From a virus (Duplodnaviria; Heunggongvirae; Uroviricota; Caudoviricetes): 64,000 nucleotides of DNA. Where the stretch lies: IMG/VR virus record IMGVR_UViG_3300005831_000057, one strand, 5' to 3'. The notes below the pieces were generated by a model. The model made no database searches, was not told the origin of the DNA, and was given only the letters and a program-made list of their open reading frames with translations. Below, piece by piece: positions 15,696 to 46,586 of the stretch; position 1 is the stretch's first letter; each line of letters starts with the position of its first letter. A program made the position numbers and the translations under genes.

Positions 15696-16019
15696 TTATT
15701 CCTCCTCGGTTACAATACTTATTTTGTTAGATATAATGTTGTCCATTATTTCCTTTCCGATTTCTTGTATTGTGAACCTTGTATTAATAATAACATAGAT
15801 ATTGCATAATGTCAATAGTATTTTTGAAATTTTTACAATATCTTCTATAAAAAATATAACATCGGTGTCATTAGCGTTGGAATTAAATGTTGCAATTTTA
15901 GTATCTGACGATATAATATCTTTAGACAAGTCTAATTCGTCTACATAAAATCCGTCTCTTAGGCTTAAAAATATAATATACTCTTTATTGGTTAGATAAA
16001 TACTTTTGGCAAACATCAC
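15696..16019 (-). CDS. Hypothetical protein
   Basis: 107 aa ORF whose start overlaps the stop of the upstream gene. Confidence 0.3.
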   Translation of the reverse strand: MMFAKSIYLTNKEYIIFLSLRDGFYVDELDLSKDIISSDTKIATFNSNANDTDVIFFIEDIVKISKILLTLCNIYVIINTRFTIQEIGKEIMDNIISNKISIVTEEE

Positions 16020-17137
16020 TTAATCCCTTTGATGGTAGTATATAAATCATCGTACGATTCACATCTTATCCCATCCCAATCGCTATTAAATGCATATTTC
16101 TTACCAAAACAAATATCAACATCTGCGTTAGAAGTCTTAAGATTAGAACCAAGATCGTCTATAAAAATACCATTCATCATATTTATAGAAGATTTATCCT
16201 TGTATTTGTTCTCGTCAAGTAAAATTAGATTTGCATATGGAAAAATTCTTCCTAGTAATTCCGACTTACCTTTTAGATTTTTGTCAGTACCAATAGTTAC
16301 AAAATTAATTTCATATCCATCGTCGTACAACTTGTTAATTACCTCTTCTGAATTTTCAAAGAAATGCATATTTTCTTTATTAAAAAACCTGTCATCGTTG
16401 AAATATCCTTTTATGGTTTCCATTTTACAATTTACTTCTTCAAAATCCCAACTCACAACAATATTAGGATCAATATCTGTATCAAAGTCTTTGTTGTACA
16501 TTCCAACTACAGTTTTAAATGTATCGTTTAATGTTCCGTCAAAGTCAAAGAATAGTCTTTTTAGATATCTTTTATCTGTAGACCACTTATCGATTATCTC
16601 GTCTAGCGTAACTGGAGCGTAATCATAAAACATGCATCCAACATTATAAGCATTACACTCATATCCGTTATTATTTAAATCCCTAATCATCTTAAGAGCT
16701 ACATCGTGCTCTGGGGTTTTGTGAAAATGTCCATATAGATGAATTCCACCATGATAATGACCGTCATAAAATGGCATTAAGTAATGTGAAAGCACAACTT
16801 TCTTTGTTTCTCCATTGTTTAACGTAACAGATATTTTGGAATAGTCTGAAATCCCATTGAAAGCTTTTTTGTTAGTTCCATTGCTTAGGAATTTATCATG
16901 ATTTCCAGTTACTATATTAATCTGTCCGTTAAGTTTCTTTAAAAGACTAGGGACATCGTCGTGTCTCCAAATCATATCGCCAAGAACATATACAACTCCA
17001 TCTTTTGGCACTTTTTCATTCCATCGTCTTATAAGCTCGTTTTCCATTTCTTCTGTGTCTCTGAATGGTCTGTCATCGAATCCTATACAGTTATAATGTC
17101 CTATGTGTAAATCTGATGTAAAAAAAACTTTGCTCAT
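16016..17137 (-). CDS. Calcineurin-like metallophosphoesterase fused to a HAD-superfamily (DxDGT) phosphatase/nucleotidase domain
   Basis: MPE motifs DLHIGH, GDM, GNHD, GHFH in the N-terminal half. C-terminal FFDFDGTLNDT (HAD motif I) and IFIDD (motif IV). Confidence 0.65.
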   Translation of the reverse strand: MSKVFFTSDLHIGHYNCIGFDDRPFRDTEEMENELIRRWNEKVPKDGVVYVLGDMIWRHDDVPSLLKKLNGQINIVTGNHDKFLSNGTNKKAFNGISDYSKISVTLNNGETKKVVLSHYLMPFYDGHYHGGIHLYGHFHKTPEHDVALKMIRDLNNNGYECNAYNVGCMFYDYAPVTLDEIIDKWSTDKRYLKRLFFDFDGTLNDTFKTVVGMYNKDFDTDIDPNIVVSWDFEEVNCKMETIKGYFNDDRFFNKENMHFFENSEEVINKLYDDGYEINFVTIGTDKNLKGKSELLGRIFPYANLILLDENKYKDKSSINMMNGIFIDDLGSNLKTSNADVDICFGKKYAFNSDWDGIRCESYDDLYTTIKGIK

Positions 17138-17140: not shown

Positions 17141-18115
17141 CTAATCATCCTCCTCTTCTGGAAATGTTGCTATGTCATCCCAATTGCTTGTATCAAATGG
17201 TATATCGTCACATATGAAATTAGACATCCGTTCGCTAAGCGTTGTCGGTGTTATAGCACGATGAATAGCATCAATAGCACTATCGAGTCCAACGACGTGA
17301 GTCGGACTATTATATGTCGCACCTGCCAACGAATCTACTACATTGCCATTATTAAACATAATTGTACGAACATCATTAGTTGTAATATTAGAATCAACAT
17401 AACCACTGCCATAATTACTGCTGAAATAACTATTAAAACTACTAGGCATATTATATAGTATATACTCTTCAAACTTAGACATATTAGTGTATTCTTTTGG
17501 AGACCTAGGTAATGTAGGTATACAGTTATATATCTTATTACTTAAATTTGAAAGTCTTCCATTCATATATTCTGCACAGTCAACAACGTTATTAATAACA
17601 GTATCTATTAAAATATCTACATGGCATGAATTGATGTTATAAAAATCATAATTATCAGCTGTCATCCTTCTTTCAATTTCTTCTTGAGAATCTCCTCTTG
17701 ACAACAATCTAATTTTGGTCTCTTGGTCGGTACATTTAACTAATACAGACGCAAAATTTATACTAGTATTATTAGATACCGCACGAAGACCGTCTGGGTT
17801 AAGAATCAAAACATTATTCATTCCAGAAAGCATCTTGGTCAAAGGAGTTCCATAAAAGCATTTTCCAAACGAAGCATCATAACTTGTAGTTTCTAAAAAC
17901 ACACCTTTGTGATTCATATTATCAAATTCTTCTTCCGATACAAAATGATAATCAACTCCGTCAACCTCACCTTCTCGCATAGGTCTTGTCGTACAAGTAA
18001 CCACTTTGTTCCATCCAAACTTGACCAACTCATTGACGATGGTCGTCTTACCGCTTCCACTTCTGCCGATTATTACACAGTTAAAGTTATTATTTTCACT
18101 TAAATTTCTAGGCAT
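17141..18115 (-). CDS. Guanylate-kinase-like nucleoside monophosphate kinase with a C-terminal extension
   Basis: P-loop GRSGSGKTT and the guanylate kinase signature TTRPMREGEVDGVDYHFVSEEEF. Confidence 0.7.
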   Translation of the reverse strand: MPRNLSENNNFNCVIIGRSGSGKTTIVNELVKFGWNKVVTCTTRPMREGEVDGVDYHFVSEEEFDNMNHKGVFLETTSYDASFGKCFYGTPLTKMLSGMNNVLILNPDGLRAVSNNTSINFASVLVKCTDQETKIRLLSRGDSQEEIERRMTADNYDFYNINSCHVDILIDTVINNVVDCAEYMNGRLSNLSNKIYNCIPTLPRSPKEYTNMSKFEEYILYNMPSSFNSYFSSNYGSGYVDSNITTNDVRTIMFNNGNVVDSLAGATYNSPTHVVGLDSAIDAIHRAITPTTLSERMSNFICDDIPFDTSNWDDIATFPEEEDD

Positions 18116-18409: not shown

Positions 18410-18575
18410 ATTTAGTTCCCTTGCCTTTCTCTGTGTCTTTATATTTCTTTTCTTTTTCTTTCATTCCTCTTAAAGCCATCGTTAGTATAGTAGCTGGAAT
18501 AATCATTGCGAATATTACAACTACCAATCTTGACGACATTTCTAATAAATATTCTTGCATAAACCCTCCTTTTAA

Positions 18576-18809
18576 TTATCTTTCTAGTTCTACGATATTT
18601 GAAACTACTATCGTTATGTCGTCTTCGCAATTTTCAAAACAGCTTTTCTTTATTTCTTTAGGCAGCATCTTTACATATTCAATATTTATTGGAACATACA
18701 TATTTCTTAGGAATATATTTCCGTCGCCGTTAATCATTTTTGTATTATTTTTAAATGTGTAGTGTACAAGAAAATTTCTTCCTTTGTCCTGTTTACTCGT
18801 ATCGTTCAT
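18576..18809 (-). CDS. Hypothetical protein
   Basis: 77 aa ORF downstream of a consensus promoter. Confidence 0.3.
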   Translation of the reverse strand: MNDTSKQDKGRNFLVHYTFKNNTKMINGDGNIFLRNMYVPINIEYVKMLPKEIKKSCFENCEDDITIVVSNIVELER

Positions 18810-18843
18810 TTTTTCTATCTCCTTTTTGTTTATTTATAATACT

Positions 18844-18872
18844 ATTATACATACTCTTCTTAGTATTGTCAA
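18844..18872 (-). promoter_or_regulatory. Consensus sigma-A promoter (minus strand): TTGACA-N17-TATAAT
   Basis: Reverse complement reads TTGACAatactaagaagagtatgTATAAT. Confidence 0.55.
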
Positions 18873-18881
18873 TACCTAATT

Positions 18882-19244
18882 TTATAAAAATACACTTTTA
18901 TCTGGTAGCGCCAAAGGGTTGTATTTGTTTAGTTTATTTATTGATGTAACTTCGTAAAAAGTGCTGCCATCAATCGAAAACGTAATATTGATTATATCAT
19001 CTGCACCATTTTCAAAAACGCTATATATTGATATTTTACCACTTTTCATTTTACCTATTGTCGCACTATCCACTTTCTTAACTATCCATTCTTGGGATTT
19101 TCTATATTCATAACATAAGCATATATACTCTACGTTATTGGCATTTCTACATATAAACAATATAGGATGGTTGTCGTATTCCATAAGTGTTTCTGCGATA
19201 TACAAATCTCCTATGTTATGAATACTTTCGAAATATTTCTTCAT
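18882..19244 (-). CDS. Hypothetical protein
   Basis: 120 aa ORF. Confidence 0.3.
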   Translation of the reverse strand: MKKYFESIHNIGDLYIAETLMEYDNHPILFICRNANNVEYICLCYEYRKSQEWIVKKVDSATIGKMKSGKISIYSVFENGADDIINITFSIDGSTFYEVTSINKLNKYNPLALPDKSVFL

Positions 19245-19250
19245 TTACTA

Positions 19251-19892
19251 TTAATCCCTTTCGTCTTTATTTTTGTATTCAAATCTTATACTCGAAATTT
19301 CGTTATCGTCCATAATAATAGCACATAATCTACCACCAAATACACATCCGTTATCAATACATATACAATTGTACTTAATATTAACTAAATTGTCTTCTAC
19401 TGTAGTATGCCCATGCATGGTAAGACATTTGCGCTTAGAATCTACATTTCTACTCCATAAAATATCATCTTTTGTATTTTCTTCTATATCTGGTTTTGAT
19501 AGTGACGAGTGACACCAAACAATATCGCCATCTTTGAAATATAAAGGTAGACTTTTAATCGTGTGATACATCGCTTTATAACTCTGTCCGTTTTTATAAA
19601 AACTTCTCTTCGTTTTGTTACCGCCATTTGAAATCCAAGACTTATCCACTTCGTTTACATAATCCAAAAACATCTGTTCGTGATTTCCTAACAGCCATAT
19701 AAATTTGTCACTTTTGGCAATAATTCTAGTATTTATGATAAAATTAAAAAGTTCATAACTATTACGTCCTCTGTCTATTACATCTCCAGTAATTATAAGT
19801 CTATCTTGTTGTGGATCATAATTTATTTTATCTAACAATGTCATAAGTGTATAATAACATCCATGTATATCTCCGACTGTTATAGTTCTCAT
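19251..19892 (-). CDS. PPP-family (lambda-phosphatase-like) metallophosphoesterase
   Basis: GDIHGCYY, GDVIDRG and GNHE motifs. This is the same fold as the phosphoesterase module of bacterial Pnkp. Confidence 0.75.
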   Translation of the reverse strand: MRTITVGDIHGCYYTLMTLLDKINYDPQQDRLIITGDVIDRGRNSYELFNFIINTRIIAKSDKFIWLLGNHEQMFLDYVNEVDKSWISNGGNKTKRSFYKNGQSYKAMYHTIKSLPLYFKDGDIVWCHSSLSKPDIEENTKDDILWSRNVDSKRKCLTMHGHTTVEDNLVNIKYNCICIDNGCVFGGRLCAIIMDDNEISSIRFEYKNKDERD

Positions 19893-19908
19893 ATTCTCTC
19901 CTTTTATT

Positions 19909-20835
19909 TTAATGCGAATTTACATCAGCGTCGTGTAATGTCATAAGTTGTCTATATAAATCATAGCCTAACATATCTTGATACTTTTTATACGTTTTTT
20001 TATACTTCCAAGAATAAGGCATCATGTGTAAATTTACCAATGTAGATATATTAATTATTTCGCTATCAGAATATCCATCACGCAATTGCAAAATATCATA
20101 AGCTCCTACATTTTCATGGTTGTAATAGTGAGCATCACTGTCAACTTCTCCTAAATGATTCAAAAATGTCTTAGTAAATGGTTTTCCGATATCATGCAAC
20201 TTCGCAGCAACCACGACTAAATCTGAATCTTTTAGTAAATCACGATTAGCGTACTTATTAATTACTTGCCATGACGTGTTGTACATATGCTTTCCAAGCG
20301 TGTCTTTGTGGTGTGAGTTTTCTTGGTCAAATCTGCATATCTCTTCTGTAAGAAAGTCTTTAATAGTTTTAGGCTTAAACGATATAGGCGTATGTATTTT
20401 AATATCATTCCACCCTTCATACATAGATGGAGTATTCCAATTAGTATACATCTTTTTTATTACATATTCTGGTACAATTCTATCTCTATTATTGTTATTT
20501 TTGATGCATTCTTCATAAGTATTATAGGCGATATGACATTCTTTGAATACCTCTAAATTATTTTTTCTAGCAAAAGAATCTAACTCTAACAAGAAAGCCA
20601 TTCTCTTTTTTCTACAAATATTAGTTGCGTCATATACCACGTCTTTGCCATCTAATAATGTATTAAAAGTTCTTTCTTTCATAATCCTGAACACTTCTGT
20701 AGCATCTTTCTGCACCCTTTCGTCGCCATATAATTCTTCTCTTATACTATCTGACGAATGAACGATTCCAGTAGCAGATTTAGCCAATGTAGACTTTCCA
20801 CTAGCTGGCAATCCTACTAACATAGCAAATTTCAT
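19909..20835 (-). CDS. Polynucleotide-kinase-like P-loop kinase fused to an HD phosphohydrolase domain
   Basis: AAGGAGG RBS before MKFAMLVGLPASGKST (Walker A, T4 Pnkp-like N-terminus). C-terminal H...LHDIGK HD motif. Confidence 0.6.
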   Translation of the reverse strand: MKFAMLVGLPASGKSTLAKSATGIVHSSDSIREELYGDERVQKDATEVFRIMKERTFNTLLDGKDVVYDATNICRKKRMAFLLELDSFARKNNLEVFKECHIAYNTYEECIKNNNNRDRIVPEYVIKKMYTNWNTPSMYEGWNDIKIHTPISFKPKTIKDFLTEEICRFDQENSHHKDTLGKHMYNTSWQVINKYANRDLLKDSDLVVVAAKLHDIGKPFTKTFLNHLGEVDSDAHYYNHENVGAYDILQLRDGYSDSEIINISTLVNLHMMPYSWKYKKTYKKYQDMLGYDLYRQLMTLHDADVNSH

Positions 20836-20837
20836 AA

Positions 20838-21821
20838 TCAATCCTCCTTTAAACATCTTTTTATTTCAATAGCTATCCCTTTTATTACAGGTACGCATAC
20901 AGAGTTTCCTGCTTGTTTATACAATCTAGCATCACTCATATCATCTGGTAAAACATAATATTCAGGAAATCCTTGTGCATTAAAACATTCTCTTGGTGTC
21001 ATTTTTCTAATACCATGCTTAGTCTTTATTAAGCAAACGTTATGTCCGCCTTCCCCTTGATTTGCCGTAAGAGTTGGCACAACTCCTGATCGATTTTTTC
21101 TTACATACTTCCTTCTCCACTGATATATTGCTGGATTTTCTGGTTCATCATTTTTCATCCCATCCACTAAAGCATCGTATATTTCGCCTTTATACTTACC
21201 TAATGTATAATAATACTTTTCGTCAACCTTGTTATTAAAATCGATAATATCTTTTACTGTAGTTGTCAAATGGGTAGCAAGCGGCCAATGAAATTTTTCA
21301 TAATCTTCTTCATCTCTAAATGCCACAATGTAAATTCTTTCTCTGTTCTGTGCTATGTTTCCATAATTCATCGCATTTAATACTTGATAAGTGTATTTAT
21401 ATCCAAGTATATCTAGTTGTTCACAAATCACTCTGAATGTATTTCCGTTATCATGTCCAACAAGATTTTTTACATTTTCAAAAAAAGCAAATCTTGGTTT
21501 CTTATCCTCTAGTATGCGTGTTAATTCAAAAAACAGCTCTCCACGCCCTTTTTCATCTTCAAATCCTTTTCTGTATCCCGCAATAGAAAAAGACTGACAT
21601 GGAAATCCAGCTAGCATAATATCAAAATCAGGTATTTCTTCACTTTTTACATCGCATATATCTCTCATGTCTACTTTTATATCAAAATTAAGTTCAAATG
21701 TCTTTGTTGGGTATAGATCGATTTCATTTGCATAAATAGTTTTAAAAATTTCTGCGCTTTCAAATCCACAGTCGATACCTCCTACGCCAGCAAAAAAAGA
21801 TGCACACCTTAACATAATCAA
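20838..21821 (-). CDS. DNA (cytosine-5)-methyltransferase
   Basis: FAGVGG (motif I), GFPCQ (IV), ENV (VI), GNSV (X). Confidence 0.85.
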   Translation of the reverse strand: MIMLRCASFFAGVGGIDCGFESAEIFKTIYANEIDLYPTKTFELNFDIKVDMRDICDVKSEEIPDFDIMLAGFPCQSFSIAGYRKGFEDEKGRGELFFELTRILEDKKPRFAFFENVKNLVGHDNGNTFRVICEQLDILGYKYTYQVLNAMNYGNIAQNRERIYIVAFRDEEDYEKFHWPLATHLTTTVKDIIDFNNKVDEKYYYTLGKYKGEIYDALVDGMKNDEPENPAIYQWRRKYVRKNRSGVVPTLTANQGEGGHNVCLIKTKHGIRKMTPRECFNAQGFPEYYVLPDDMSDARLYKQAGNSVCVPVIKGIAIEIKRCLKED

Positions 21822-23095
21822 TCCTCCTTTAAATACTTTTTTATTTCAGACATCTTTATGTATTTTGGTGACTTGGTGTTTTCGTTTTGCTTTATATAAT
21901 TAACGCTCTTCCCAAGATGTCTTCTTATTACATATTTTGCAATGCTTTTATCTACATTATTTCTTACATAAATCATAAAATCTTTAGTGTTGTCAGTGCT
22001 GCGAATTGCATCGGTGATACTTCTATCCACATCTTCGTTTATTGTATAAAGATATCTAAACACAATGTCTGATATATATCCAACTCTATGCTTATACGCC
22101 GCTGGTACTTTACTTATAAAATCGTCAAAATTGCCATCTCCTATACATTTAATTATAAGATTTACCGAAGATGACTTGTCTAGTATCTTGTGGATATTAA
22201 CATAATCGTCATACTTTATCTTAACCTTAAATCCATCAATGTCTAGCACGAATCCTTCTGCTTCATTTGATCTTACATCTTTTAATGAATTAAAGACTTT
22301 ATCTAATGTAGTATCAAAGAGTCTAGTAGACTTAACACTATATTGAGTTGCGAAACCTATTACGTCTTCATAAGAAAATTCTATTCCATTATTATTGTCT
22401 CTTATTCCGATTAAATACATTCCTTCGTATTCTTTCTTATAAACAACTACATGTTGATCTTTTAATGATATATATTCAAATATAAACGTAAGACCAATGT
22501 TGCTTTTAATCATCTTCAAATAATTGTTGTCATTTTCAATCATACTGTAAGCGTCTTCAAGTCGCCAAGAAGTCTTCCTATTTATGCTCATACTGCTTGC
22601 CATAACTAAATTATCATTATACCAAGTTGCAGTCATCATAGATCCGTCAAGCTTATCCGAGAATTCTACACTGTTAGCGTTTTCTATCATAGCTGAAATA
22701 TTCTCATAACTAGTTTCGTCGCTCTCGTTGAGATTCCTAAATTTTCTAAATGGACAAAGTACAATTTCGTCAGATATTAAGTTTATAACTACTCCTCTAC
22801 ACTCTTTGTAAAATCCTCCATAAGAATCCCAGAATTTATCATACTTATTTACTTCTTCTGAATTATTGAATACACTTGAATAATTTCCGTATCTTATAAT
22901 CGCCAAATTATGATGATATGAAATTTGCAAATCTCTAAACAAGCAACGATATTCTTCTAAACCAAGTCTCTCTATCCAGTTCTCTATTATGGTATTACCT
23001 TCTAATGCTTTAAAATCAAAAGCATAGCCAAACCTTTTTACATATTCATCTTTTATTTCTACTACTTTATTTAAAACTGCGTTCCAAGACTTCAT
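21818..23095 (-). CDS. RNA ligase (Rnl1-like covalent nucleotidyltransferase)
   Basis: Motif I SDKLDGS (KxDG), motif III FEYIS, motif IV EGFVL, motif V KVKIK. Embedded with the kinase and phosphatase genes. Confidence 0.6.
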   Translation of the reverse strand: MKSWNAVLNKVVEIKDEYVKRFGYAFDFKALEGNTIIENWIERLGLEEYRCLFRDLQISYHHNLAIIRYGNYSSVFNNSEEVNKYDKFWDSYGGFYKECRGVVINLISDEIVLCPFRKFRNLNESDETSYENISAMIENANSVEFSDKLDGSMMTATWYNDNLVMASSMSINRKTSWRLEDAYSMIENDNNYLKMIKSNIGLTFIFEYISLKDQHVVVYKKEYEGMYLIGIRDNNNGIEFSYEDVIGFATQYSVKSTRLFDTTLDKVFNSLKDVRSNEAEGFVLDIDGFKVKIKYDDYVNIHKILDKSSSVNLIIKCIGDGNFDDFISKVPAAYKHRVGYISDIVFRYLYTINEDVDRSITDAIRSTDNTKDFMIYVRNNVDKSIAKYVIRRHLGKSVNYIKQNENTKSPKYIKMSEIKKYLKED

Positions 23096-23123
23096 AATTA
23101 ACCTCCTTAATTATCATAAACAT

Positions 23124-23152
23124 ATTGTATCACATCACCGATGGTATGTCAA
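23124..23152 (-). promoter_or_regulatory. Sigma-A promoter with extended -10 (minus strand), driving the ligase-Dcm-kinase-phosphatase block
   Basis: Reverse complement reads AAAAAAAA..GTGTTGACAtaccatcggtgatgTGaTACAAT. Confidence 0.5.
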
Positions 23153-23217
23153 CACTTTATTCAAAAAAAAGATAAGAAAGCCAATTAAAACTTCCTCATC
23201 TTCTATTTATACACTTA

Positions 23218-23712
23218 TTAGTAGCGATTAACATAATCTAATCTTGTAACTTCAAATACTTTCTTATCGTGAAATTCTCCATCGAGTAAGATATCTTCGT
23301 TTTTATAAACTCCAACAACTCTACCTCCAAAATTATTAACAATTCTTTCATATTTTTCTATAGCTGGATTTCTAGTGTAACATCCAAAATTAAGCTTATT
23401 AAACTTGAACTTCATAAATATATCATCAAATAATTTTAGTAGATCTAGTCCAAACATAGGGTTGTCTGAAAAGTTTATAATAGACAATCCACTTGCATTA
23501 TTTGTAGTTCTATCAATTTCATACGAAAAATATCCTATTACATTACTATCTTTATCTATGCTTACAAATTCATGAGAACTCCATGTGTTTTCGCTGCATG
23601 TATATGACTTTCTGTAATTGCCACAAAACGCAAACATATATTTCAAATCTAGTCCAATATTTGTAAATAAATCTTTTAATTCTGATTCATATTTAGCAGC
23701 TATGTCAATCAT
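23218..23712 (-). CDS. Hypothetical protein, possibly GNAT-like acetyltransferase
   Basis: 164 aa. NPAIEKYERIVNNFGG is reminiscent of the GNAT motif A region. Weak call. Confidence 0.3.
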   Translation of the reverse strand: MIDIAAKYESELKDLFTNIGLDLKYMFAFCGNYRKSYTCSENTWSSHEFVSIDKDSNVIGYFSYEIDRTTNNASGLSIINFSDNPMFGLDLLKLFDDIFMKFKFNKLNFGCYTRNPAIEKYERIVNNFGGRVVGVYKNEDILLDGEFHDKKVFEVTRLDYVNRY

Positions 23713-23917
23713 TATTGTCTCCCAATTCTATTTTATTTCTTTGTGCGATATTATAATCGTTAGCATGTTGAGAAAACACTTCTTTCCCACAACTATTACA
23801 CAAGCAGATTTTACCATGATAATTATACTTTTCGCCATCGACCACTGTATACATAAGTTTCCATATAGTAACATGCGTAACATCTTTTTTGCAATTACCA
23901 CAAAATACTTTTCTCAT
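23705..23917 (-). CDS. Small zinc-ribbon protein
   Basis: CGNC...CNSC cysteine pairs. Confidence 0.3.
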   Translation of the reverse strand: MRKVFCGNCKKDVTHVTIWKLMYTVVDGEKYNYHGKICLCNSCGKEVFSQHANDYNIAQRNKIELGDNND

Positions 23918-23930
23918 AAAAGTCTCCTTG

Positions 23931-24161
23931 CTATTTTATTTCATTGAGTAATTTTAGTTTAATATGGCGCAACGCAAGGTCATATATTCCAAGATTCTTA
24001 CATTCTTCAATTGGTATAGTTTTATATCTATCTCGCATTATGTTAACTCCAAGCCTAGTATTCCAGTTTTTATGACCGCCAGAAACTTTATCTTCTACAT
24101 ATATTTCGTATGCAACATCATATTCAACTCCATCGTGAAGTATTTTAATTTTCATATACAT
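23931..24161 (-). CDS. Hypothetical protein
   Basis: 76 aa ORF directly downstream of nrdD. Confidence 0.3.
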   Translation of the reverse strand: MYMKIKILHDGVEYDVAYEIYVEDKVSGGHKNWNTRLGVNIMRDRYKTIPIEECKNLGIYDLALRHIKLKLLNEIK

Positions 24162-24165
24162 CCTC

Positions 24166-26304
24166 CTATAAATGCAACTTTCTTTCTTTTATCTCTTTTG
24201 TCTTGCCTAGATTCCAGAAATTAGTTCCGAGATATCCACAAGTTCTTCTAGTTATAGTCAGCTTAGATTCGTCACGATTATTACAATTAGGGCAATACCA
24301 TTTTATATTTTCATCTATCAACATTTCGCCTTCAAATCCACATACTTGACAGTAATCACATTTTGTATTAAATTCTGCATACTGAATTGTATCGTATATA
24401 AATTTTATTCCAGATTCTACAGCCTCGATATTATGCATCATATATGGGATTTCTGCGTAACTTATACATCCTCCGTTAGATATTGGCTGAAACTGCGACT
24501 CAAACATGAACTTACTAAACATGTCTATTTTCTCTCTTACGTCAACATGATAAGAATTGGTGTAATAACCTTTATCAGTTACGTTTTCTATAATTCCAAA
24601 TTGCTCTGTGTCTATTTTGGCAAATCTGTAACATAAAGACTCAGCTGGAGATCCATACAATCCAAATCCTATAGTGGTATCGTTCTTCCATCTTTCAGTA
24701 GTTTCCCTTAGTTTATTCATAACTCTTAAAGAGAACTTAAGTCCGTCTGTTTCTGTGTGGCTTTTACCAGTCATAAGTATTGATAGTTCGTATAAACCAA
24801 TATACCCAAGCGAAATTGTGGAATATCCATTATATAAATACTTATCTATAACCTCTCCTTTGTCTAGCCTTGCTATAGCGCCGTCTTGCCAATGTATAGG
24901 ACTTGCGTCTGAAATAGTTCCTTTTAATAGTTTATGCTTACACATCAACACTTCGTAACACATTTCTAGTCTTTCTTCCAATATTTTCCAAAACGTATCT
25001 TCGTCGCCATTACTTACAATTCCTATTTGTGGTAGATTAATACTGACAACTCCTTGATTAAACCTTCCTTCCCACTTATAATTACCATCTTCATCTTTGA
25101 AATTAGACAAGAAACTTCTACATCCCATACTCGAAAATACTTCTCCGTCATAAGCCTCTCGCATCTTTTTGGCAGAAATATAGTCTGGGTACATTCTTTT
25201 AGCACTGCATTTAGCACACAACTTTGTTATGTAATCGAACTTACCACCGCTAAGATTGTTATTCTCATCAAGTACATATATCAACTTTGGGAAAGCTGGA
25301 GTTATATTAGCATCTTGCTTATTCGTGATTCCTTCATATCTTTGTTTGATGATTTCGTATACAATCATTTGAATCTCGTCTATATATTCGTCTGACTCAT
25401 CGAGGTGTAAAAATATTGTAACAAAAGGGGATTGTCCATTAGTCGTCATAAGTGTATTAATCTGGTACTGAATCGTCTGTACACCAGACTTTAAATCATC
25501 CATCATCCTATCTATCGCCAAAGTGTTTGATAAACTCTCGCCAAATCCTAAATCGTTATGATAGTGGCAAAATGCTTTAATGCGTGTCTTTCTAAGATAT
25601 TTTCCAAGATGTTTTATGTTTACAGATTGTCCACCAAACTGACTACTTGCTACTGCTGCCATAATTTGCGTCATTACTGTACATGCCACTTGAAAACTTT
25701 TTGGACTTTCAATTTTAATCCCATTTATAGATGTCCCATTGTCTAACATATCTTTTATGTCGATTAAACAACAATTAAACATTCCTTTTTGCATAGAATA
25801 GTCTAAGTCGTGAACATGGTAAATTCCTTTGTCATGAGCATCAATCACATGTTGTGGAAATAAAATTCTTCTTGCTATATCTTTAGACGTTTCGCCAGCA
25901 ATCAAATCTCTTTGTGTAGAATTTAGAATAGAGTTTTTATTTGAGTTATCATAAGACACTTCATTTTTTTCTCTGTTGATTAGTTGCATAATGCTATCGT
26001 CGGTAGTATTTGATTCTCGTATCATACTTCTTTTATATCTATATAGCATATAATTCTTAGCTAAATCTTTATTTGGCAAATTCATCAATGCATTTTCTAT
26101 TTCGTTTTGGATATCCTCTACGGTTATTAATCCATCTTCTAAGCATATATAGTTGGCAACTTGACTTGTAATGTCTTCTGCCAATTCTAAGTCTTCGTCG
26201 TCTAAATCTGTCTTATATAATCCCTTCATGGAACTGCATATTGCGTTAAAAATCTTGCGACTATCAAACTTTACCTCTTCGCCATTTCTTTTAATTATAA
26301 TCAT
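24166..26304 (-). CDS. nrdD: Anaerobic ribonucleoside-triphosphate reductase (class III RNR)
   Basis: N-terminal ATP-cone. C-terminal zinc ribbon CDYCQVCG...CPNC and the glycyl-radical motif RRTCGYLG. Confidence 0.9.
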   Translation of the reverse strand: MIIIKRNGEEVKFDSRKIFNAICSSMKGLYKTDLDDEDLELAEDITSQVANYICLEDGLITVEDIQNEIENALMNLPNKDLAKNYMLYRYKRSMIRESNTTDDSIMQLINREKNEVSYDNSNKNSILNSTQRDLIAGETSKDIARRILFPQHVIDAHDKGIYHVHDLDYSMQKGMFNCCLIDIKDMLDNGTSINGIKIESPKSFQVACTVMTQIMAAVASSQFGGQSVNIKHLGKYLRKTRIKAFCHYHNDLGFGESLSNTLAIDRMMDDLKSGVQTIQYQINTLMTTNGQSPFVTIFLHLDESDEYIDEIQMIVYEIIKQRYEGITNKQDANITPAFPKLIYVLDENNNLSGGKFDYITKLCAKCSAKRMYPDYISAKKMREAYDGEVFSSMGCRSFLSNFKDEDGNYKWEGRFNQGVVSINLPQIGIVSNGDEDTFWKILEERLEMCYEVLMCKHKLLKGTISDASPIHWQDGAIARLDKGEVIDKYLYNGYSTISLGYIGLYELSILMTGKSHTETDGLKFSLRVMNKLRETTERWKNDTTIGFGLYGSPAESLCYRFAKIDTEQFGIIENVTDKGYYTNSYHVDVREKIDMFSKFMFESQFQPISNGGCISYAEIPYMMHNIEAVESGIKFIYDTIQYAEFNTKCDYCQVCGFEGEMLIDENIKWYCPNCNNRDESKLTITRRTCGYLGTNFWNLGKTKEIKERKLHL

Positions 26305-28366: not shown

Positions 28367-28806
28367 AAGTTATCTGTTTTAATCATATATATAACTGCGT
28401 CAACACGATTGTCTTCGAGTTCTTTACGTATAATATCTATAAGGAAATTATATTTATCCTTATCTTCTAAGTAAAACGCAATAGAACATATGTTTCTGCG
28501 TGCCCAATCCTTAATATTACTTATATTTTTGCGAATAAATTCAATATTTCCGTCATAATCATCATGTCCAATATATGTCAAGGCAGAACTTACAAAAACT
28601 CTGTCTGAAAATGTCCAATCATTACGCATTGATAAGAAATTTATACTAGATAGAAATCTTGCATAATCAGACTTGGCTGTCTTGTTAATACTAAAACACT
28701 CTTCTACTATTTTGTTATTCATTCCTTCTCCATCACGTCCGCTTATAAAAAAATCCACACGTCTTTCTTCTTTCTTGTATTCTTCAATATCTAATACTTC
28801 TATCAT
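28363..28806 (-). CDS. Hypothetical soluble protein of the NTase cassette
   Basis: 147 aa. ATGA overlaps with both neighbours. Confidence 0.35.
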   Translation of the reverse strand: MIEVLDIEEYKKEERRVDFFISGRDGEGMNNKIVEECFSINKTAKSDYARFLSSINFLSMRNDWTFSDRVFVSSALTYIGHDDYDGNIEFIRKNISNIKDWARRNICSIAFYLEDKDKYNFLIDIIRKELEDNRVDAVIYMIKTDNL

Positions 28807-29888
28807 ACTTTCACTCCTTTGTTATTTTTTATATTTCCAACTACAATTCTTTCGTTTACCGACATTGTAAAATCTCTTATTTTCTTATAGTCGGGCTTAT
28901 CTGACAACTCTGTGTTTTTCTTTGCGTATTCTAACTTTTGTTCGTAATCTGCTATTATGTCGAAGAATTCTGTCACAACTTGCTTATTATCGTCTAAATA
29001 TTTACCATTTCTTATATCCATTAATAGATCATGCTCAGCGTCTCTATAAGTTACTATCTTTTGTTTCTCAAGTATATCTAAGCACATAATATATAATCTT
29101 AATAGGTGGCACATATGCTTTCCAAGTTTATCATGTTTCGCAGCGTTTTCGTTACGCTTACCTAAAACTCCATATTCTTTTACAATCGACTGCATTTCTG
29201 ACATCATCGACTTATAATCTCTTAATGGATAATTCTTAAAGTTTACATCCATAAAAATTTCAGTATCATATTCTTCTTGTGCTGACTCGCCAATATACAA
29301 ATTGATATTATCATCATCGTTGCTAAAATACCTATCTTTAAAATAATATTTGGCATTATTCAGTGTATTTAATATATGCTGCTCTCTTTCAGAATGAGAT
29401 ACGTCACGTTTAGATTTGTTAGTAAGTCGTCTAAGCTGTTGATTGGCATATCCTCCAAATGAATGAATTGCTAGTTTTGATAAGAATAAATCGCTATTAT
29501 CTAAAAGTTCTTGTCCAATATCGCTAACATGTAAATAATGTTCTTTGTTACATCCTAGAATTTCAATAGTGTTTGGATTGCAATTGGTTAAAAGTGTGAT
29601 TATTTTGTTAAATGAATAAATTGTAGTGTCAGTTTCGTTGTTAATAAATTGGTTAAAGTTACTATTTGTCAAGATATCTTCTTTTGAGTTTAAAGCAATT
29701 CCTCTTACATCTAGGTCACTGTCTTCGTTGTTAGTGCCATAAGCATAACTTCCACCAAGTGTTAGTAATATTATATTATCTTTTAATCTTGGTTCATCTC
29801 TAAGAAAGCTATATTTATCCGAATTTACTAACTGTTTGATTTCTTCTAAATTCATGACTCGCTCCTTTCTAAAACACATATTAACCAT
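28803..29888 (-). CDS. Pol-beta-superfamily nucleotidyltransferase (GS...DxD) with a helical C-terminal domain
   Basis: LGGSYAYGTNNEDSDLDVRG matches the minimal NTase G[GS]x(9-13)DxD signature. The true start may be the internal MNLEEI. Confidence 0.55.
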   Translation of the reverse strand: MVNMCFRKERVMNLEEIKQLVNSDKYSFLRDEPRLKDNIILLTLGGSYAYGTNNEDSDLDVRGIALNSKEDILTNSNFNQFINNETDTTIYSFNKIITLLTNCNPNTIEILGCNKEHYLHVSDIGQELLDNSDLFLSKLAIHSFGGYANQQLRRLTNKSKRDVSHSEREQHILNTLNNAKYYFKDRYFSNDDDNINLYIGESAQEEYDTEIFMDVNFKNYPLRDYKSMMSEMQSIVKEYGVLGKRNENAAKHDKLGKHMCHLLRLYIMCLDILEKQKIVTYRDAEHDLLMDIRNGKYLDDNKQVVTEFFDIIADYEQKLEYAKKNTELSDKPDYKKIRDFTMSVNERIVVGNIKNNKGVKV

Positions 29889-30636
29889 TATTCCAAACTT
29901 CTATTTTAGTGTCTATACACGCAATGTGATTATTAATTCTTTTATTTGATATGTTGTAATAATTCCTATCTAGTTCGAATCCTATGTATTGTCTATTAGT
30001 ATTTATACATGCTATAGCGGTACTCCCGCCCCCTATGCAATTATCCATCACAACTTCGCCGTCGTTTGTATACGTTTTAATTAGGTATTCTAATAGAGCT
30101 ACTGGTTTTTGTGTTGGATGTACCGTATTTTTATCACGCTTAAATTCTATAACCGACAAAGGATATCTTTCACCTTCACTTTTTGAAATATGTCCACCGC
30201 AGCTTTTATCGTAATTATAACTCTCGCTTCCGCTTCCTTGTTTGCAAATATACGGTTTAAATCCCAATCTCATTTGTGGGTTATATGTAGGAGTTTTCTT
30301 GTAAAATACTAATATATTCTCATGATTTTTTAGTGGCATCTTTTTAGCGTTAAGAAATCCAGTTCCATTCTCTTTTTGCCATATCCATTCATACTTTAGG
30401 TTTTTTATGTTGCTACATCCCAATACTTTGTCAAATGGAGATTGTGCAAATAGTACGATAGCTCCATCGTCTTTTATTACTCTATTATAAGCGTTCCACA
30501 ACTCTTGTAAATCGATAACAGTATCCCACTTGTTTCTAGTAGTTCCATATGGCAAATCACATAAAATCATATCAATTGATTTGTCATTTAATTTTTTCAT
30601 TCCTTCTATGCAATCTTCATTATATATTTCATTCAT
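29881..30636 (-). CDS. Beta-class DNA methyltransferase (N6-adenine or N4-cytosine)
   Basis: Motif IV ILCDLPYG near the N-terminus and motif I DNCIGGGSTAIAC near the C-terminus, the permuted beta-class order. Confidence 0.8.
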   Translation of the reverse strand: MNEIYNEDCIEGMKKLNDKSIDMILCDLPYGTTRNKWDTVIDLQELWNAYNRVIKDDGAIVLFAQSPFDKVLGCSNIKNLKYEWIWQKENGTGFLNAKKMPLKNHENILVFYKKTPTYNPQMRLGFKPYICKQGSGSESYNYDKSCGGHISKSEGERYPLSVIEFKRDKNTVHPTQKPVALLEYLIKTYTNDGEVVMDNCIGGGSTAIACINTNRQYIGFELDRNYYNISNKRINNHIACIDTKIEVWNNG

Positions 30637-46473: not shown

Positions 46474-46512
46474 AATCTTCCTCTTTTCTTTTCATTTTTT
46501 TATTTAATCACT

Positions 46513-46562: not shown

Positions 46563-46586
46563 TGATTATGTTTTATTTTTTACTTA

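What the first reader, a model, noticed from the sequence alone, without database searches (positions are those of the whole stretch)
19251..23152. Pnkp-like RNA repair cassette split into separate genes, with a Dcm methyltransferase embedded
One promoter drives four genes in order: an Rnl1-like RNA ligase (KLDGS, FEYIS, EGFVL, KVKIK); a C5-cytosine methyltransferase; a P-loop polynucleotide-kinase-like protein fused to an HD domain; and a lambda-phosphatase-type metallophosphoesterase (GDxHG/GDxxDRG/GNHE). Kinase plus lambda-type phosphoesterase plus ligase are the activities of bacterial Pnkp/Hen1-type repair and of T4 Pnkp/Rnl1. Here they are unfused, the kinase carries an extra HD domain, and a DNA methyltransferase is interleaved.
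Basis: partly seen in the sequence, partly recalled or inferred. Interest (0 to 1): 0.75.

Follow-up and report, generated by a model that had tools for sequence, protein, structure and literature searches.

The report
Phage RNA-repair operon with inserted methylase
A phage of gut-type Firmicutes carries an ordinary "heal-and-seal" tRNA/RNA repair pair (an RNA ligase plus a kinase-phosphoesterase). A DNA methylase gene copied from host-like bacteria has been spliced into that pair, and a lambda-type phosphatase gene follows it, so this is a variant of a known system and not a new one.

Summary
On the minus strand, 23152-19251 contains a consensus promoter followed by four tightly packed genes: an Rnl1-type RNA ligase, a C5 DNA methyltransferase, a P-loop polynucleotide kinase fused to an HD phosphoesterase (Pnk-HD), and a lambda-phosphatase-type metallophosphoesterase (MPE). 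A fifth small ORF follows with no terminator.

The conserved unit is ligase + Pnk-HD. Pnk-HD is a large family (1,952 hits, also found in 39 cultured Bacillus-type phage records). In 78 of 99 related loci an RNA ligase lies within 3 kb, often with RlaP, Thg1-like or TROVE-like genes nearby. The HD domain is therefore the family's built-in 3'-end healer, not an extra. It is the domain-swapped counterpart of the characterised HD-Pnk.

The methyltransferase is a 980-bp insertion bracketed by a 36-nt direct repeat. It is 73-87% identical to methylases of gut Firmicutes, and one 87% relative sits in a chromosomal restriction-modification-type island. It is absent from this position in all 99 relatives. 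I read it as anti-restriction cargo, not RNA repair.

The MPE is rarely linked to Pnk-HD (7 of 99 loci), so its role in repair is plausible but unproven.

Novelty is modest: a variant of a known kind. Interest about 0.35.

The parts
23167..23204 (-). Terminator-like hairpin plus T-run that closes the upstream transcription unit (a 164-aa ORF)
   Evidence: The only terminator-like site found in 18500-24300; sequence read.
23124..23152 (-). Sigma-70-type promoter TTGACA-17-TACAAT with an extended TG
   Evidence: 11 of 12 match. It is followed by AAGGAGG and the ligase ATG. This is consensus evidence only.
21818..23095 (-). Rnl1-type ATP-dependent RNA ligase, 425 aa; adenylylation lysine K148 in KLDGS
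   Evidence: PF09511 87 bits. phrog_562 8e-43. T4 Rnl1 alignment with motifs I, III, IV and V conserved. 34% identical to the RNA ligase of Bacillus phage KLEB27-3.
21813..21848 (-). Direct repeat, copy 1: last codons of the ligase (EIKKYLKED*), RBS AAAGGAGG, and the ATG of the MTase
   Evidence: 36-nt repeat, 33 of 36 identical, spacing 980 nt. The exact 21-mer occurs only at these two sites in 64 kb; 0.01 expected.
20838..21815 (-). C5-cytosine DNA methyltransferase (M.HhaI-like), 325 aa; inserted cargo
   Evidence: PF00145 2e-83. M.HhaI 1e-56 against Dnmt2 4e-10. The top 120 of at least 8000 hits are 73-87% identical, in Lachnospiraceae, Erysipelotrichaceae and Dorea. The 87% relative P0130 lies beside Vsr and HpaII-RE fragments. 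78% DNA identity to that gene over 968 nt.
20833..20868 (-). Direct repeat, copy 2: last codons of the MTase (EIKRCLKED*), RBS, and the ATG of Pnk-HD
   Evidence: The EIKRC part corresponds to the native MTase tail (EMAKC in P0130).
20389..20835 (-). Pnk-HD, N-terminal half: P-loop 5'-OH polynucleotide kinase (GLPASGKS, general-base D29, R32, D69, R117/R119)
   Evidence: CthPnkp kinase domain 4gp7 at 1e-5 by sequence and 1.8e-7 by fold. The catalytic residues are invariant in 37 homologues. The model has pLDDT 94.
19909..20388 (-). Pnk-HD, C-terminal half: HD metal-dependent phosphoesterase (H176, H214-D215, H236, H270, D304 invariant)
   Evidence: Pfam HD 3e-6. TIGR02692 CCA tRNA nucleotidyltransferase HD region 1.7e-8. 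The best solved fold is the HD domain of tRNA nucleotidyltransferase 3wfo-3wfs, TM 0.61-0.67. It maps to positions 19-146 of phrog_6931 while the kinase maps to 186-339, so the domain order is swapped.
19251..19892 (-). Lambda-phosphatase-type binuclear metallophosphoesterase, 213 aa
   Evidence: 1g5b 1.7e-16. CthPnkp phosphatase 4j6o 1.5e-12. phrog_246 2.4e-53. TIGR04075 bacterial Pnkp 7e-16. All metal-ligand motifs are present.
18882..19244 (-). Fifth co-directional ORF, 120 aa, unknown function
   Evidence: It starts 6 nt after the MPE stop. The only match is a sub-threshold DUF6575 hit (19 bits against 26.6). It has no homologue in the 99 related loci.
18844..18872 (-). Next consensus promoter (TTGACA-17-TATAAT, 12 of 12); probable start of the following unit

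Best explanation
The locus is a phage tRNA/RNA 'heal-and-seal' repair operon whose core is two genes.

Proposed pathway. [quoted passage not shown] The C-terminal HD domain of Pnk-HD removes the cyclic or 3'-phosphate to give a 3'-OH. The N-terminal P-loop kinase phosphorylates the 5'-OH. The Rnl1-type ligase then seals the break through ligase-(K148)-AMP and AppRNA intermediates.

The other genes. The lambda-type metallophosphoesterase is co-transcribed and may act as an accessory or alternative 2',3'-cyclic phosphodiesterase; this part is uncertain. The C5 methyltransferase is not part of the pathway. It is a DNA methylase captured from the host gene pool and inserted as a 980-bp cassette exactly at the ligase/Pnk-HD junction, with duplication of the 36-nt junction. 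It most likely protects phage DNA from restriction.

Shown here: gene identities, catalytic residues, conserved synteny, and the insertion signature. Inferred: the substrates, the order of the steps, the operon structure, and the biological trigger.
For: Enzyme identities and intact active sites.

Kinase: nearest to RNA-repair polynucleotide kinases by sequence and by fold.

HD domain: nearest to the HD domain of class-II tRNA nucleotidyltransferases. The E. coli version of that domain is reported to have 2',3'-cyclic phosphodiesterase and phosphatase activity (Yakunin 2004, known to me only from the reference list of PMC2190708).

The Pnk-HD family: 1,952 proteins at E<=1e-5.

Synteny across 99 related loci:
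- 85 carry an ATP-dependent RNA ligase, 78 of them within 3 kb and 34-37 directly upstream.
- The ligase type varies (Rnl1-type in at least 18 loci, PF09414 Rnl2-type in 46, plus OB-fused and short forms) while the pairing is kept.
- 42 have an RlaP nucleotidyltransferase within 3 kb, 10 a TROVE-like gene and 4 a Thg1-like gene.
- 89 of 99 have at least one such partner within 3 kb.

Cultured phages show the same pair: in Thrax2 the RNA ligase overlaps the 'polynucleotide kinase'; PJN02 has an endonuclease inserted at the same junction; phage G has gp264 next to gp265.

Precedent: Runella HD-Pnk is a proven bifunctional end-healer encoded in an overlapping operon with a ligase (PMC6097658).

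MTase as an insertion:
- 36-nt flanking direct repeat, unique in the window.
- No MTase directly upstream of Pnk-HD in any of the 99 loci.
- 73-87% identity to Firmicute methylases, while its neighbours' best relatives reach only 47-49% (Pnk-HD), 47% (ligase) and 33% (MPE).
- A restriction-modification/Vsr context for the 87% relative.
- Two further DNA MTases in the same window.

MPE in repair:
- Adjacent and apparently co-transcribed.
- Its best PHROG family (phrog_246, 2.4e-53) has a P-loop kinase in its N-terminal profile positions, and it also hits a kinase-MPE-ligase family (phrog_8238) and bacterial Pnkp. This is a fusion ('Rosetta-stone') argument for a functional link.
- Lambda phosphatase and CthPnkp both hydrolyse 2',3'-cyclic phosphates (PMC2190708).
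- In L046, L055, L056 and L072 the order is RlaP, Pnk-HD, Thg1-like, MPE.
Against: - No biochemistry exists for any member of the Pnk-HD (kinase-first) family as far as my literature searches reach.
- No anticodon nuclease or other trigger is identified, and the host is unknown.
- The HD and MPE activities look redundant.
- MPE homologues occur in only 7 of 99 Pnk-HD loci.
- The MPE's own relatives are stand-alone genes in housekeeping or anonymous early-gene contexts.
- The ligase scores far below the T4 RnlA equivalog cut-off (51 against 242 bits).
- The operon structure rests on consensus motifs only.
- No 'empty-site' relative was found that would prove the insertion.
Confidence: 0.75

Rival explanations
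1. The metallophosphoesterase is not a repair enzyme. It is a NinI/lambda-phosphatase-type enzyme with another job, such as protein dephosphorylation, or hydrolysis of Ap4A-like or cyclic-nucleotide signals, or nucleotide metabolism. It merely shares a transcript with the repair genes. The repair system would then be strictly ligase + Pnk-HD.
For: - Only 7 of 99 Pnk-HD loci have any MPE homologue.
- 553 phage records carry homologues. Those listed are mostly lambdoid NinI genes, and the two neighbourhoods I inspected (ECP3, MMB025) show stand-alone genes among anonymous early genes.
- The closest cellular relatives sit in housekeeping contexts.
- The strongest NCBIfam hit is ApaH, over the N-terminal part only.
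- The HD domain already supplies 3'-end healing.
- The downstream units encode nucleotide-metabolism enzymes: a guanylate-kinase-like protein and an MPE-NT5C fusion.
Against: - The gene starts 16 nt after the Pnk-HD stop, with its own RBS and no terminator.
- The phrog_246 and phrog_8238 profiles and bacterial Pnkp fuse this MPE type to a polynucleotide kinase.
- Lambda phosphatase prefers 2',3'-cyclic nucleotides, and its physiological substrate is unknown (PMC2190708).
- MPEs do occur in some extended tRNA-repair clusters.
Confidence: 0.4
2. One reading: all four genes form one functional system, and the C5 methyltransferase acts on RNA. It would be Dnmt2-like, or would play the role of Hen1 by marking the repaired junction so it cannot be cut again.
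For: - Translational-coupling-type junctions lie on both sides of the MTase.
- Methyltransferases do occur in RNA repair clusters: Hen1, and the MTase-HIT protein in the Runella cluster (PMC6097658).
- Dnmt2 shows that the C5-MTase fold can methylate tRNA.
Against: - M.HhaI scores 1e-56 against 4e-10 for Dnmt2.
- The 87% relative lies next to Vsr (repair of T:G mismatches caused by 5mC deamination) and restriction-enzyme fragments.
- The MTase is absent from the junction in 99 of 99 relatives.
- It is flanked by an insertion-type direct repeat.
- Other selfish genes occupy the same junction elsewhere: HNH in L005, GIY-YIG in L019, and an 'endonuclease' in phage PJN02.
- The phage has two more DNA MTases, one of them abutting RlaP.
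Confidence: 0.04
3. The ligase/Pnk-HD pair heals and seals DNA ends or other nucleic-acid ends for phage replication or recombination, not damaged tRNA. A related possibility is that the ligase has a non-catalytic role like the tail-fibre attachment activity of T4 gp63.
For: - Runella HD-Pnk acts on both DNA and RNA ends; this is stated in the title of Munir & Shuman 2017, which I know only as cited in PMC6097658. From memory and unverified, Deinococcus HD-Pnk aids DNA-damage resistance.
- phrog_562 is annotated 'RNA ligase and tail fiber protein attachment catalyst'.
- The cassette lies among replication and nucleotide-metabolism genes: NrdD, DNA polymerase, helicase.
Against: - The partners that recur with Pnk-HD are RNA-specific: Rnl1/Rnl2 RNA ligases, RlaP, Thg1-like and TROVE-like genes, and arrays of tRNA genes.
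- The nearest relative of the HD domain is a tRNA-end-processing HD domain.
- All ligase catalytic motifs are intact.
- The related Bacillus phages encode a separate DNA ligase nearby.
Confidence: 0.1

Closest known systems
Bacteriophage T4 Pnkp + Rnl1 (tRNA-Lys repair against the PrrC anticodon nuclease)
   Same: Phage-encoded. An Rnl1-family ligase with conserved motifs I, III, IV and V, plus a bifunctional 5'-kinase/3'-phosphoesterase. The logic is the same: heal both ends, then seal.
   Different: The phosphoesterase here is an HD metal-dependent domain, not the DxDxT (HAD) acylphosphatase of T4 Pnkp. The ligase is only distantly related: 51 bits against the 242-bit equivalog cut-off. It also has an N-terminal extension of about 95 aa. 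Here the genes are adjacent or in one operon.
Runella slithyformis HD-Pnk and its overlapping ligase gene (Munir & Shuman 2017, as described in PMC6097658)
   Same: One polypeptide combines an HD 2',3'-phosphoesterase with a P-loop 5'-OH polynucleotide kinase, and its gene sits directly next to a ligase gene. Both halves of the window protein match a phage family (phrog_6931) that has the Runella domain order.
   Different: The domain order is reversed: kinase first, HD second. The partner is an Rnl1-type (elsewhere Rnl2-type) RNA ligase. No Tpt1 or MTase-HIT genes were noticed among the ORFs I annotated; I did not search the window systematically for them. The context is phage or prophage in Bacillota. 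No member with this domain order has been characterised biochemically, as far as my searches show.
Bacterial Pnkp/Hen1 (Clostridium thermocellum Pnkp)
   Same: The kinase domain is the closest solved relative (4gp7/4jst). The MPE resembles the CthPnkp phosphatase domain (4j6o 1.5e-12).
   Different: Pnkp is one protein of about 850 aa (kinase, MPE, ligase-like domain) that works with the Hen1 2'-O-methyltransferase. Here the scores are 34 and 58 bits against a cut-off of 750, there is no Hen1, the ligase is Rnl1-type, and an HD domain is present.
RNA ligase / 'polynucleotide kinase' gene pair of large Bacillus phages (Thrax2, PJN02, phage G, KLEB27-3)
   Same: The same Pnk-HD architecture over the full length, at 26-35% identity. 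It is found in 39 records, and in the neighbourhoods I inspected the ligase lies directly or closely upstream. This is the family to which the window genes belong.
   Different: Those records annotate the gene variously as polynucleotide kinase, AAA ATPase, HD-domain protein or hypothetical. The four neighbourhoods inspected have neither the MTase insertion nor an MPE directly after Pnk-HD; KLEB27-3 has annotated metallophosphoesterases 2-4 kb downstream. PJN02 has an endonuclease gene at the same junction.
Lambda NinI phosphatase (1G5B)
   Same: Similar size (213 against 221 aa), about 33% identity, and all binuclear-metal ligands including the Arg of GDxxDRG.
   Different: It is located directly after a polynucleotide kinase gene. 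The physiological substrate is unknown for both proteins.
M.HhaI-type C5 DNA methyltransferases of restriction-modification systems
   Same: All catalytic motifs are present; 1e-56 to M.HhaI; 73-87% identity to Firmicute methylases, one of which sits in an R-M/Vsr island.
   Different: Here it is an orphan (no restriction enzyme) inside a phage operon, flanked by a 36-nt direct repeat. Its target sequence is unknown because the target-recognition region does not align to M.HhaI.

Membership tests
Rnl1 (T4 RnlA-type) RNA ligases | Match to the family's nucleotidyltransferase domain above the curated threshold | tested here: met
   PF09511 87.1 bits against a cut-off of 28.3, covering profile positions 1-227 of 227.
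Rnl1 (T4 RnlA-type) RNA ligases | Motif I lysine (T4 K99) and motifs III, IV and V in register | tested here: met
   KLDGS aligns to KEDGS, FEYIS to FEFVA, EGFVL to EGYVA, and KVKIK to FKIK in the phmmer alignment to 2c5u.
Rnl1 (T4 RnlA-type) RNA ligases | Orthology with T4 RnlA (NCBIfam equivalog TIGR02308) | tested here: not met
   51.2 bits against a cut-off of 242. It is a distant subfamily shared with Bacillus phage KLEB27-3 and metagenomic phages.
Rnl1 (T4 RnlA-type) RNA ligases | C-terminal tRNA-specificity domain; sealing of tRNA anticodon-loop breaks | not testable with these tools
   The alignment to T4 Rnl1 ends at about residue 277 of 374-375. Activity needs biochemistry.
HD-Pnk end-healing enzymes (Runella/Deinococcus type) | HD phosphoesterase and P-loop 5'-OH polynucleotide kinase in one polypeptide, with catalytic residues intact | tested here: met
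   Pfam AAA_33 plus HD. The P-loop, D29, R32, D69, R117/R119 and H176, H214-D215, H236, H270, D304 are invariant in 37 homologues. The model has pLDDT 94.
HD-Pnk end-healing enzymes (Runella/Deinococcus type) | Domain order HD (N-terminal) then Pnk (C-terminal) | tested here: not met
   The kinase is residues 1-149 and the HD domain residues 150-308. Against phrog_6931 the HD half maps to positions 19-146 and the kinase half to 186-339, so the order is swapped.
HD-Pnk end-healing enzymes (Runella/Deinococcus type) | Gene adjacent to, or overlapping, a polynucleotide ligase gene | tested here: met
   A ligase lies within 3 kb in 78 of 99 related loci and directly upstream in 34-37. In the window the two genes are separated only by the inserted MTase.
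HD-Pnk end-healing enzymes (Runella/Deinococcus type) | 5'-OH kinase and 2',3'-cyclic/3'/2'-phosphoesterase activities | not testable with these tools
   Needs enzymology.
Bacterial Pnkp/Hen1 | A single kinase-MPE-ligase polypeptide (TIGR04075) | tested here: not met
   33.9 bits (kinase) and 57.6 bits (MPE) against a cut-off of 750. The domains are on separate proteins.
Bacterial Pnkp/Hen1 | A Hen1 2'-O-methyltransferase partner | tested here: not met
   The only methyltransferase in the cassette is a C5 DNA MTase. I did not scan the whole window specifically for Hen1.
T4 Pnkp | A DxDxT (HAD) 3'-phosphatase domain fused to the kinase | tested here: not met
   phrog_505 (polynucleotide kinase) matches only the kinase half, profile positions 2-148 of 295. 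The C-terminal half is HD.
Lambda-phosphatase / CthPnkp-type binuclear metallophosphoesterases | Motifs GDxHG, GDxxDRG, GNHE, H and GH in order | tested here: met
   GDIHG 7-11, GDVIDRG 36-42, GNHE 69-72, CH 127-128, HGHT 160-163. Aligned to 1g5b over residues 5-192.
C5 DNA methyltransferases (Dcm/M.HhaI) | Motifs I (FxGxG), IV (PCQ), VI (ENV), VIII (QxRxR) and X (GNSV), and the curated threshold | tested here: met
   TIGR00675 323.6 bits against 100.65; PF00145 280.8 bits against 22. Motifs located.
Dnmt2 tRNA (C38) methyltransferases | Closer to Dnmt2 than to DNA MTases | tested here: not met
   Dnmt2 chains score 4e-10 to 9e-9 against 1e-56 for M.HhaI. The nearest homologue sits in an R-M/Vsr context.

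The most novel reading that the evidence does not exclude
The cassette may encode a three-enzyme repair pathway in which 3'-end healing is split between two unrelated phosphoesterases. The lambda-type MPE would open the 2',3'-cyclic phosphate; lambda phosphatase does this but does not hydrolyse nucleoside monophosphates (PMC2190708). The HD domain would then remove the resulting 2'- or 3'-monophosphate. Alternatively, the two enzymes could serve different ribotoxin end chemistries. No characterised RNA repair system has such a division of labour. In addition, the kinase-first Pnk-HD family (about 2,000 or more members) would be a biochemically uncharted end-healing enzyme class of Firmicute phages.
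Probability: 0.15. Interest if true: 0.55.

Novelty: new variant of a known kind. Interest (0 to 1): 0.35.

Why it matters
RNA repair is a recognised phage counter-defence against tRNA-cleaving immune nucleases. Only a few enzyme combinations have been studied biochemically: T4 Pnkp/Rnl1, Pnkp/Hen1, RtcB and Runella HD-Pnk.

This locus shows that a kinase-first Pnk-HD enzyme paired with interchangeable RNA ligases is a widespread module in phages and prophages of Bacillota. In the databases it is mostly unnamed or annotated inconsistently. Characterising one member would transfer to thousands of genes.

The methyltransferase result is a caution for reading function from gene order. A gene sitting in the middle of an operon with perfect translational-coupling signals turns out to be recently inserted cargo. 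The ligase/Pnk-HD junction is a recurrent landing site for selfish genes (HNH, GIY-YIG, an endonuclease, and this MTase).

For a specialist the system is a predictable variation and not a surprise.

Tried and rejected
- Near-identity DNA search of the cassette against 50,697 phage records found nothing.
- Single-protein scans of IMG/VR with the ligase found no relative, and with Pnk-HD only two. An alignment-based scan was needed.
- Looking up the source contig by exact protein failed twice.
- I looked for an 'empty site' or donor by scanning the metagenome and viral collections for the exact 21-mer junction. This gave 14 stretches, none related by tblastn or blastn. They are chance RBS-like matches, so the insertion is inferred from the repeat and from more distant relatives only.
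- A strict lambda-type motif regex found no MPE in the 99 loci; phmmer and jackhmmer found 7 weak ones.
- Searching with the MPE in the big protein collection gave only 6 non-self hits at about 30% identity. The two contexts I inspected showed no repair link.
- Foldseek with the full Pnk-HD model returned only kinase hits, so I modelled the HD half separately.
- Munir & Shuman 2017 and Burroughs & Aravind 2016 are not held in the library. What I say about them comes from citing papers (PMC6097658, PMC7824862) or from memory.
- GC and GC3 do not distinguish the MTase from its neighbours, so composition gives no evidence on how old the insertion is.
- The RNA-methylase reading of the MTase was considered and rejected.

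Full report
OBSERVATION.

- Ligase (23095..21818, 425 aa). It matches Pfam RNA_lig_T4_1 at 87 bits (cut-off 28) and phrog_562 at 8e-43, and it aligns to the T4 Rnl1 crystal-structure sequences at 4e-10. R54, the motif I lysine (KLDGS against KEDGS), and motifs III, IV and V are all in register.
- Second gene, a complete C5 DNA methyltransferase. PF00145 2e-83; TIGR00675 324 bits against 101; M.HhaI 1e-56; motifs I, IV, VI, VIII and X are present.
- Third gene, a P-loop kinase fused to an HD domain (AAA_33 7e-11, HD 3e-6).
- Fourth gene, a 213-aa binuclear metallophosphoesterase with every lambda-phosphatase motif (1g5b 1.7e-16, CthPnkp phosphatase 4j6o 1.5e-12).

Upstream of the ligase lie a terminator-like hairpin, a TTGACA-17-TACAAT promoter with an extended TG, and AAGGAGG-ATG. 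No terminator-like site lies inside the cassette.

Three corrections apply:
1. The RBS-supported starts are ATG 21815 (MTase) and ATG 20835 (Pnk-HD).
2. A fifth ORF of 120 aa follows 6 nt after the phosphoesterase stop, and the next consensus promoter is at 18872-18844.
3. Promoter-like matches are not enriched over shuffles (37 against 36.2), so the single-promoter statement is an inference from gene packing, not a demonstrated fact.

THE KINASE-HD PROTEIN IS A FAMILY, AND THE HD DOMAIN IS ITS POINT.
- Family size. A search of the large protein collection gave 1,952 proteins at E<=1e-5. The top 120 are all about 300 aa, cover 86-98% of the query (nearly all 95-98%), and are 39-48% identical apart from the self hit.
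- Conserved residues. In an alignment of 37 members the invariant residues are exactly the catalytic ones. On the kinase side these are the P-loop GxxxSGKS, the general-base Asp (D29), R32, D69 of the DATN motif, and the lid arginines R117/R119. On the HD side they are H176, H214-D215, H236, H270 and D304.
- Model. The AlphaFold model is confident (pLDDT 94).
- Kinase half. Its closest solved structures are the Clostridium thermocellum Pnkp kinase domain, mammalian PNKP, fungal Trl1 kinase domains, PSTK, and Pnkp1 of the Pnkp/Rnl/Hen1 complex.
- HD half. Modelled alone (pLDDT 92.7), it is closest to the HD domain of class-II tRNA nucleotidyltransferases (3wfo-3wfs, TM 0.61-0.67). This agrees with the sequence hit to the CCA-enzyme model TIGR02692 (1.7e-8). 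The E. coli version of that domain is reported to be a 2',3'-cyclic phosphodiesterase/phosphatase (Yakunin 2004, known to me only from the reference list of PMC2190708).
- Domain order. Against PHROGs, the HD half maps to positions 19-146 and the kinase half to positions 186-339 of one family, phrog_6931. A phage family therefore exists with the opposite order, HD then Pnk. [quoted passage not shown] The window protein is the domain-swapped counterpart.

CONSERVED NEIGHBOURHOOD. I fetched 99 loci that encode full-length Pnk-HD relatives: 82 IMG/VR contigs, 14 contigs of Bacillota and other genomes, and three further metagenome contigs. I then searched their ORFs with profiles seeded from the window and from the loci themselves.

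- 85 loci carry an ATP-dependent RNA ligase. In 78 it lies within 3 kb, and in 34-37 it lies directly upstream on the same strand.
- The ligase type varies while the pairing persists: Rnl1-type as in the window in at least 18 loci, PF09414/Rnl2-type in 46, plus OB-fold-fused and short PF09414 forms. This is the classic signature of a functional partnership.
- 42 loci have an RlaP nucleotidyltransferase within 3 kb, and in 32 it sits directly upstream of Pnk-HD. 10 have a DUF2828/DUF7788 (TROVE-like) gene and 4 a Thg1-like gene within 3 kb.
- 89 of 99 loci have at least one such RNA-repair partner within 3 kb.
- The same gene pair is present in cultured phages. There are 39 records, nearly all large Bacillus phages. 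Thrax2 has the RNA ligase overlapping the 'polynucleotide kinase'. PJN02 has an endonuclease gene between them. Phage G has gp264 next to gp265. KLEB27-3 has gp190 and gp186.
- The published comparative literature already notes that in some jumbo phages calcineurin-like and HD phosphatases replace the usual HAD phosphatase beside polynucleotide kinases and ATP-grasp RNA ligases (PMC7824862).

THE METHYLTRANSFERASE IS INSERTED CARGO.
- Flanking repeat. The two junctions flanking the MTase ORF are almost the same sequence. A 36-nt direct repeat (33 of 36 identical, spacing 980 nt) comprises the last codons of the upstream ORF (..KYLKED* and ..RCLKED*), the RBS AAAGGAGG, a spacer and the ATG. Its exact 21-nt core occurs nowhere else in the 64-kb window; 0.01 occurrences are expected. 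Recombination between the copies would delete the MTase precisely and rebuild an adjacent ligase/Pnk-HD pair, as seen in L013, L077, L083-L086, L089 and L090.
- Absence elsewhere. None of the 99 related loci has an MTase directly upstream of Pnk-HD. The same junction holds other selfish genes in relatives: HNH in L005, GIY-YIG in L019, and an endonuclease in phage PJN02.
- Close bacterial relatives. The MTase is far better conserved than its neighbours. At least 8,000 hits were found, and the top 120 non-self hits are 73-87% identical, in Lachnospiraceae, Erysipelotrichaceae, Dorea and other Clostridia. The best relatives of Pnk-HD, the ligase and the MPE reach only 47-49%, 47% and 33%.
- Context of the closest relative. 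The 87% relative P0130 lies in a bacterial chromosomal island beside a Vsr mismatch endonuclease and HpaII restriction-enzyme fragments. DNA identity to it is 78% over 968 nt and fades about 25 nt before the stop codon.
- Direction of copying. The coding part of the repeat (EIKRC) corresponds to the native MTase tail (EMAKC in P0130). The ligase's present C-terminal residues were therefore probably copied from the cassette.
- Not an RNA methylase. Dnmt2 tRNA methylases score only 4e-10.
- Other MTases. The phage carries two more DNA methyltransferases, a second Dcm at 40039-41238 and an N6/N4 enzyme at 29881-30636 that overlaps the RlaP gene.

I conclude that the MTase is an anti-restriction DNA methylase and not a component of RNA repair.

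THE METALLOPHOSPHOESTERASE IS THE UNCERTAIN MEMBER.
For a repair role:
- It starts 16 nt after the Pnk-HD stop and has its own RBS.
- Its best PHROG family (phrog_246, 2.4e-53, matched at profile positions 180-399 of 417) has a P-loop kinase in its N-terminal positions, because the window kinase matches positions 9-105.
- It also matches a kinase-MPE-ligase family (phrog_8238) and bacterial Pnkp.
- Lambda phosphatase and CthPnkp both hydrolyse 2',3'-cyclic phosphates, and the natural substrate of lambda phosphatase is unknown (PMC2190708).
- Four related loci have the order RlaP, Pnk-HD, Thg1-like, MPE.

Against a repair role:
- Only 7 of 99 Pnk-HD loci contain any MPE homologue.
- The HD domain already provides 3'-end healing.
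- 553 phage records carry homologues, and the two neighbourhoods I inspected show stand-alone genes with no repair neighbours.
- The nearest cellular relatives are in housekeeping contexts.

I put the repair role at roughly even odds.

MECHANISM (inferred). [quoted passage not shown] The HD domain, possibly helped by the MPE, produces a 3'-OH. The kinase domain adds the 5'-phosphate. The ligase is adenylylated at K148, transfers AMP to the 5'-phosphate, and seals the break.

The same phage also encodes an RlaP nucleotidyltransferase (28803-29888), a Thg1-like enzyme (46998-47720) and a TROVE-like protein with a tRNA-like RNA. It therefore carries a dispersed, fuller RNA-repair toolkit.

COMPARISON AND NOVELTY.
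- The system works like T4 Pnkp/Rnl1 and like Runella HD-Pnk plus its ligase.
- It is not a member of bacterial Pnkp/Hen1 (no fused polypeptide, no Hen1) or of T4 Pnkp (no HAD domain).
- It departs from HD-Pnk in domain order.
- It belongs to a widespread phage family that is inconsistently annotated and, as far as my searches show, biochemically untested.

I rate it a new variant of a known kind, interest about 0.35.

LIMITS. There is no biochemistry and no transcript data. The host and the triggering nuclease are unknown. No close relative with an empty insertion site was found. Two key papers could not be read directly.

Noticed in passing
window 46640-46751 (-), within intergenic 46474-46997; related loci L035 2391-2743, L053 2359-3524, L050 1834-2340, L081 6630-6935: An oversized tRNA-like element lies directly upstream of the DUF2828/DUF7788 (TROVE-like, phrog_850 'RNA-binding protein') gene. 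It is 112 nt, scores 46 bits against the Rfam tRNA model with the model complete, and was not called by ARAGORN. Related phage loci have 2-4 such 112-124-nt elements in tandem at the same place. The acceptor and T stems covary, and 16 of 18 predicted pairs overall show compensatory changes. An insert of about 45 nt sits in the anticodon loop; it holds a covarying hairpin followed by a conserved ACAGCAA motif, and at least three different tRNA bodies carry it. These could be Y-RNA-like tRNA mimics for the TROVE-like protein (compare PMC4201824) or tRNAs with an unusual short insert. No Rfam family other than tRNA reached its gathering score in the window or in these loci. This may be more novel than the finding I was given.
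   Followed up: partly
window 46520-46586 and 46829-46895 (plus shorter copies near 46625 and 46800): Repeated units of about 45-67 nt (…GCAGCAAATTAAAAAAATCATATGCGATGAA…) flank the tRNA-like element. They share the CAGCAA motif with the tRNA-like inserts of related loci. Two consensus promoters lie upstream, at about 46909-46880 and 46990-46962.
   Followed up: no
window 44968-46473 (-), 46998-47720 (-), 28803-29888 (-): Further RNA-repair-type genes are dispersed in the same phage: a DUF2828/DUF7788 TROVE-like protein, a Thg1-like protein (tRNA 5'-end repair family) and an RlaP nucleotidyltransferase (PF10127, 63 bits). In most relatives RlaP sits between the ligase and Pnk-HD.
   Followed up: partly
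window 20833-20868 and 21813-21848; compare L005 7505-8008, L019 7226-8002, L192 4274-4996: The ligase/Pnk-HD junction is a recurrent insertion site for selfish genes: an MTase here, HNH, GIY-YIG, and an 'endonuclease' in Bacillus phage PJN02. Here the insertion is bracketed by a duplicated 36-nt stop/RBS/start junction, which suggests cassette integration by recombination at translation-initiation regions.
   Followed up: partly
window 40039-41238 (-) and 29881-30636 (-): There are two more DNA methyltransferases: a second C5 MTase of 399 aa, and an N6/N4 MTase whose ORF overlaps the start of the RlaP gene. With three MTases in 64 kb, the phage appears to invest heavily in anti-restriction.
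   Followed up: no
window 47732-48511 (-): A 259-aa phage-integrase-family (tyrosine recombinase) gene lies next to the Thg1-like gene in a phage that otherwise looks large and lytic (contig of at least 113 kb). Its role is unknown.
   Followed up: no
window 16016-17137 (-) and 17141-18115 (-): Downstream units encode a fusion of a calcineurin-like phosphoesterase with an NT5C 5'(3')-deoxyribonucleotidase, and a guanylate-kinase-like protein with a C-terminal extension of about 150 aa. This is nucleotide-metabolism context adjacent to the cassette.
   Followed up: no
phrog_246 and phrog_6931 (library observation): phrog_246, annotated 'NinI-like serine-threonine phosphatase', has a 417-position profile whose first 105 or so positions match a polynucleotide kinase. 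Many members are therefore probably Pnk-MPE end-healing fusions. phrog_6931, annotated 'unknown function', is an HD-Pnk family. Both annotations understate a likely role in RNA repair.
   Followed up: partly
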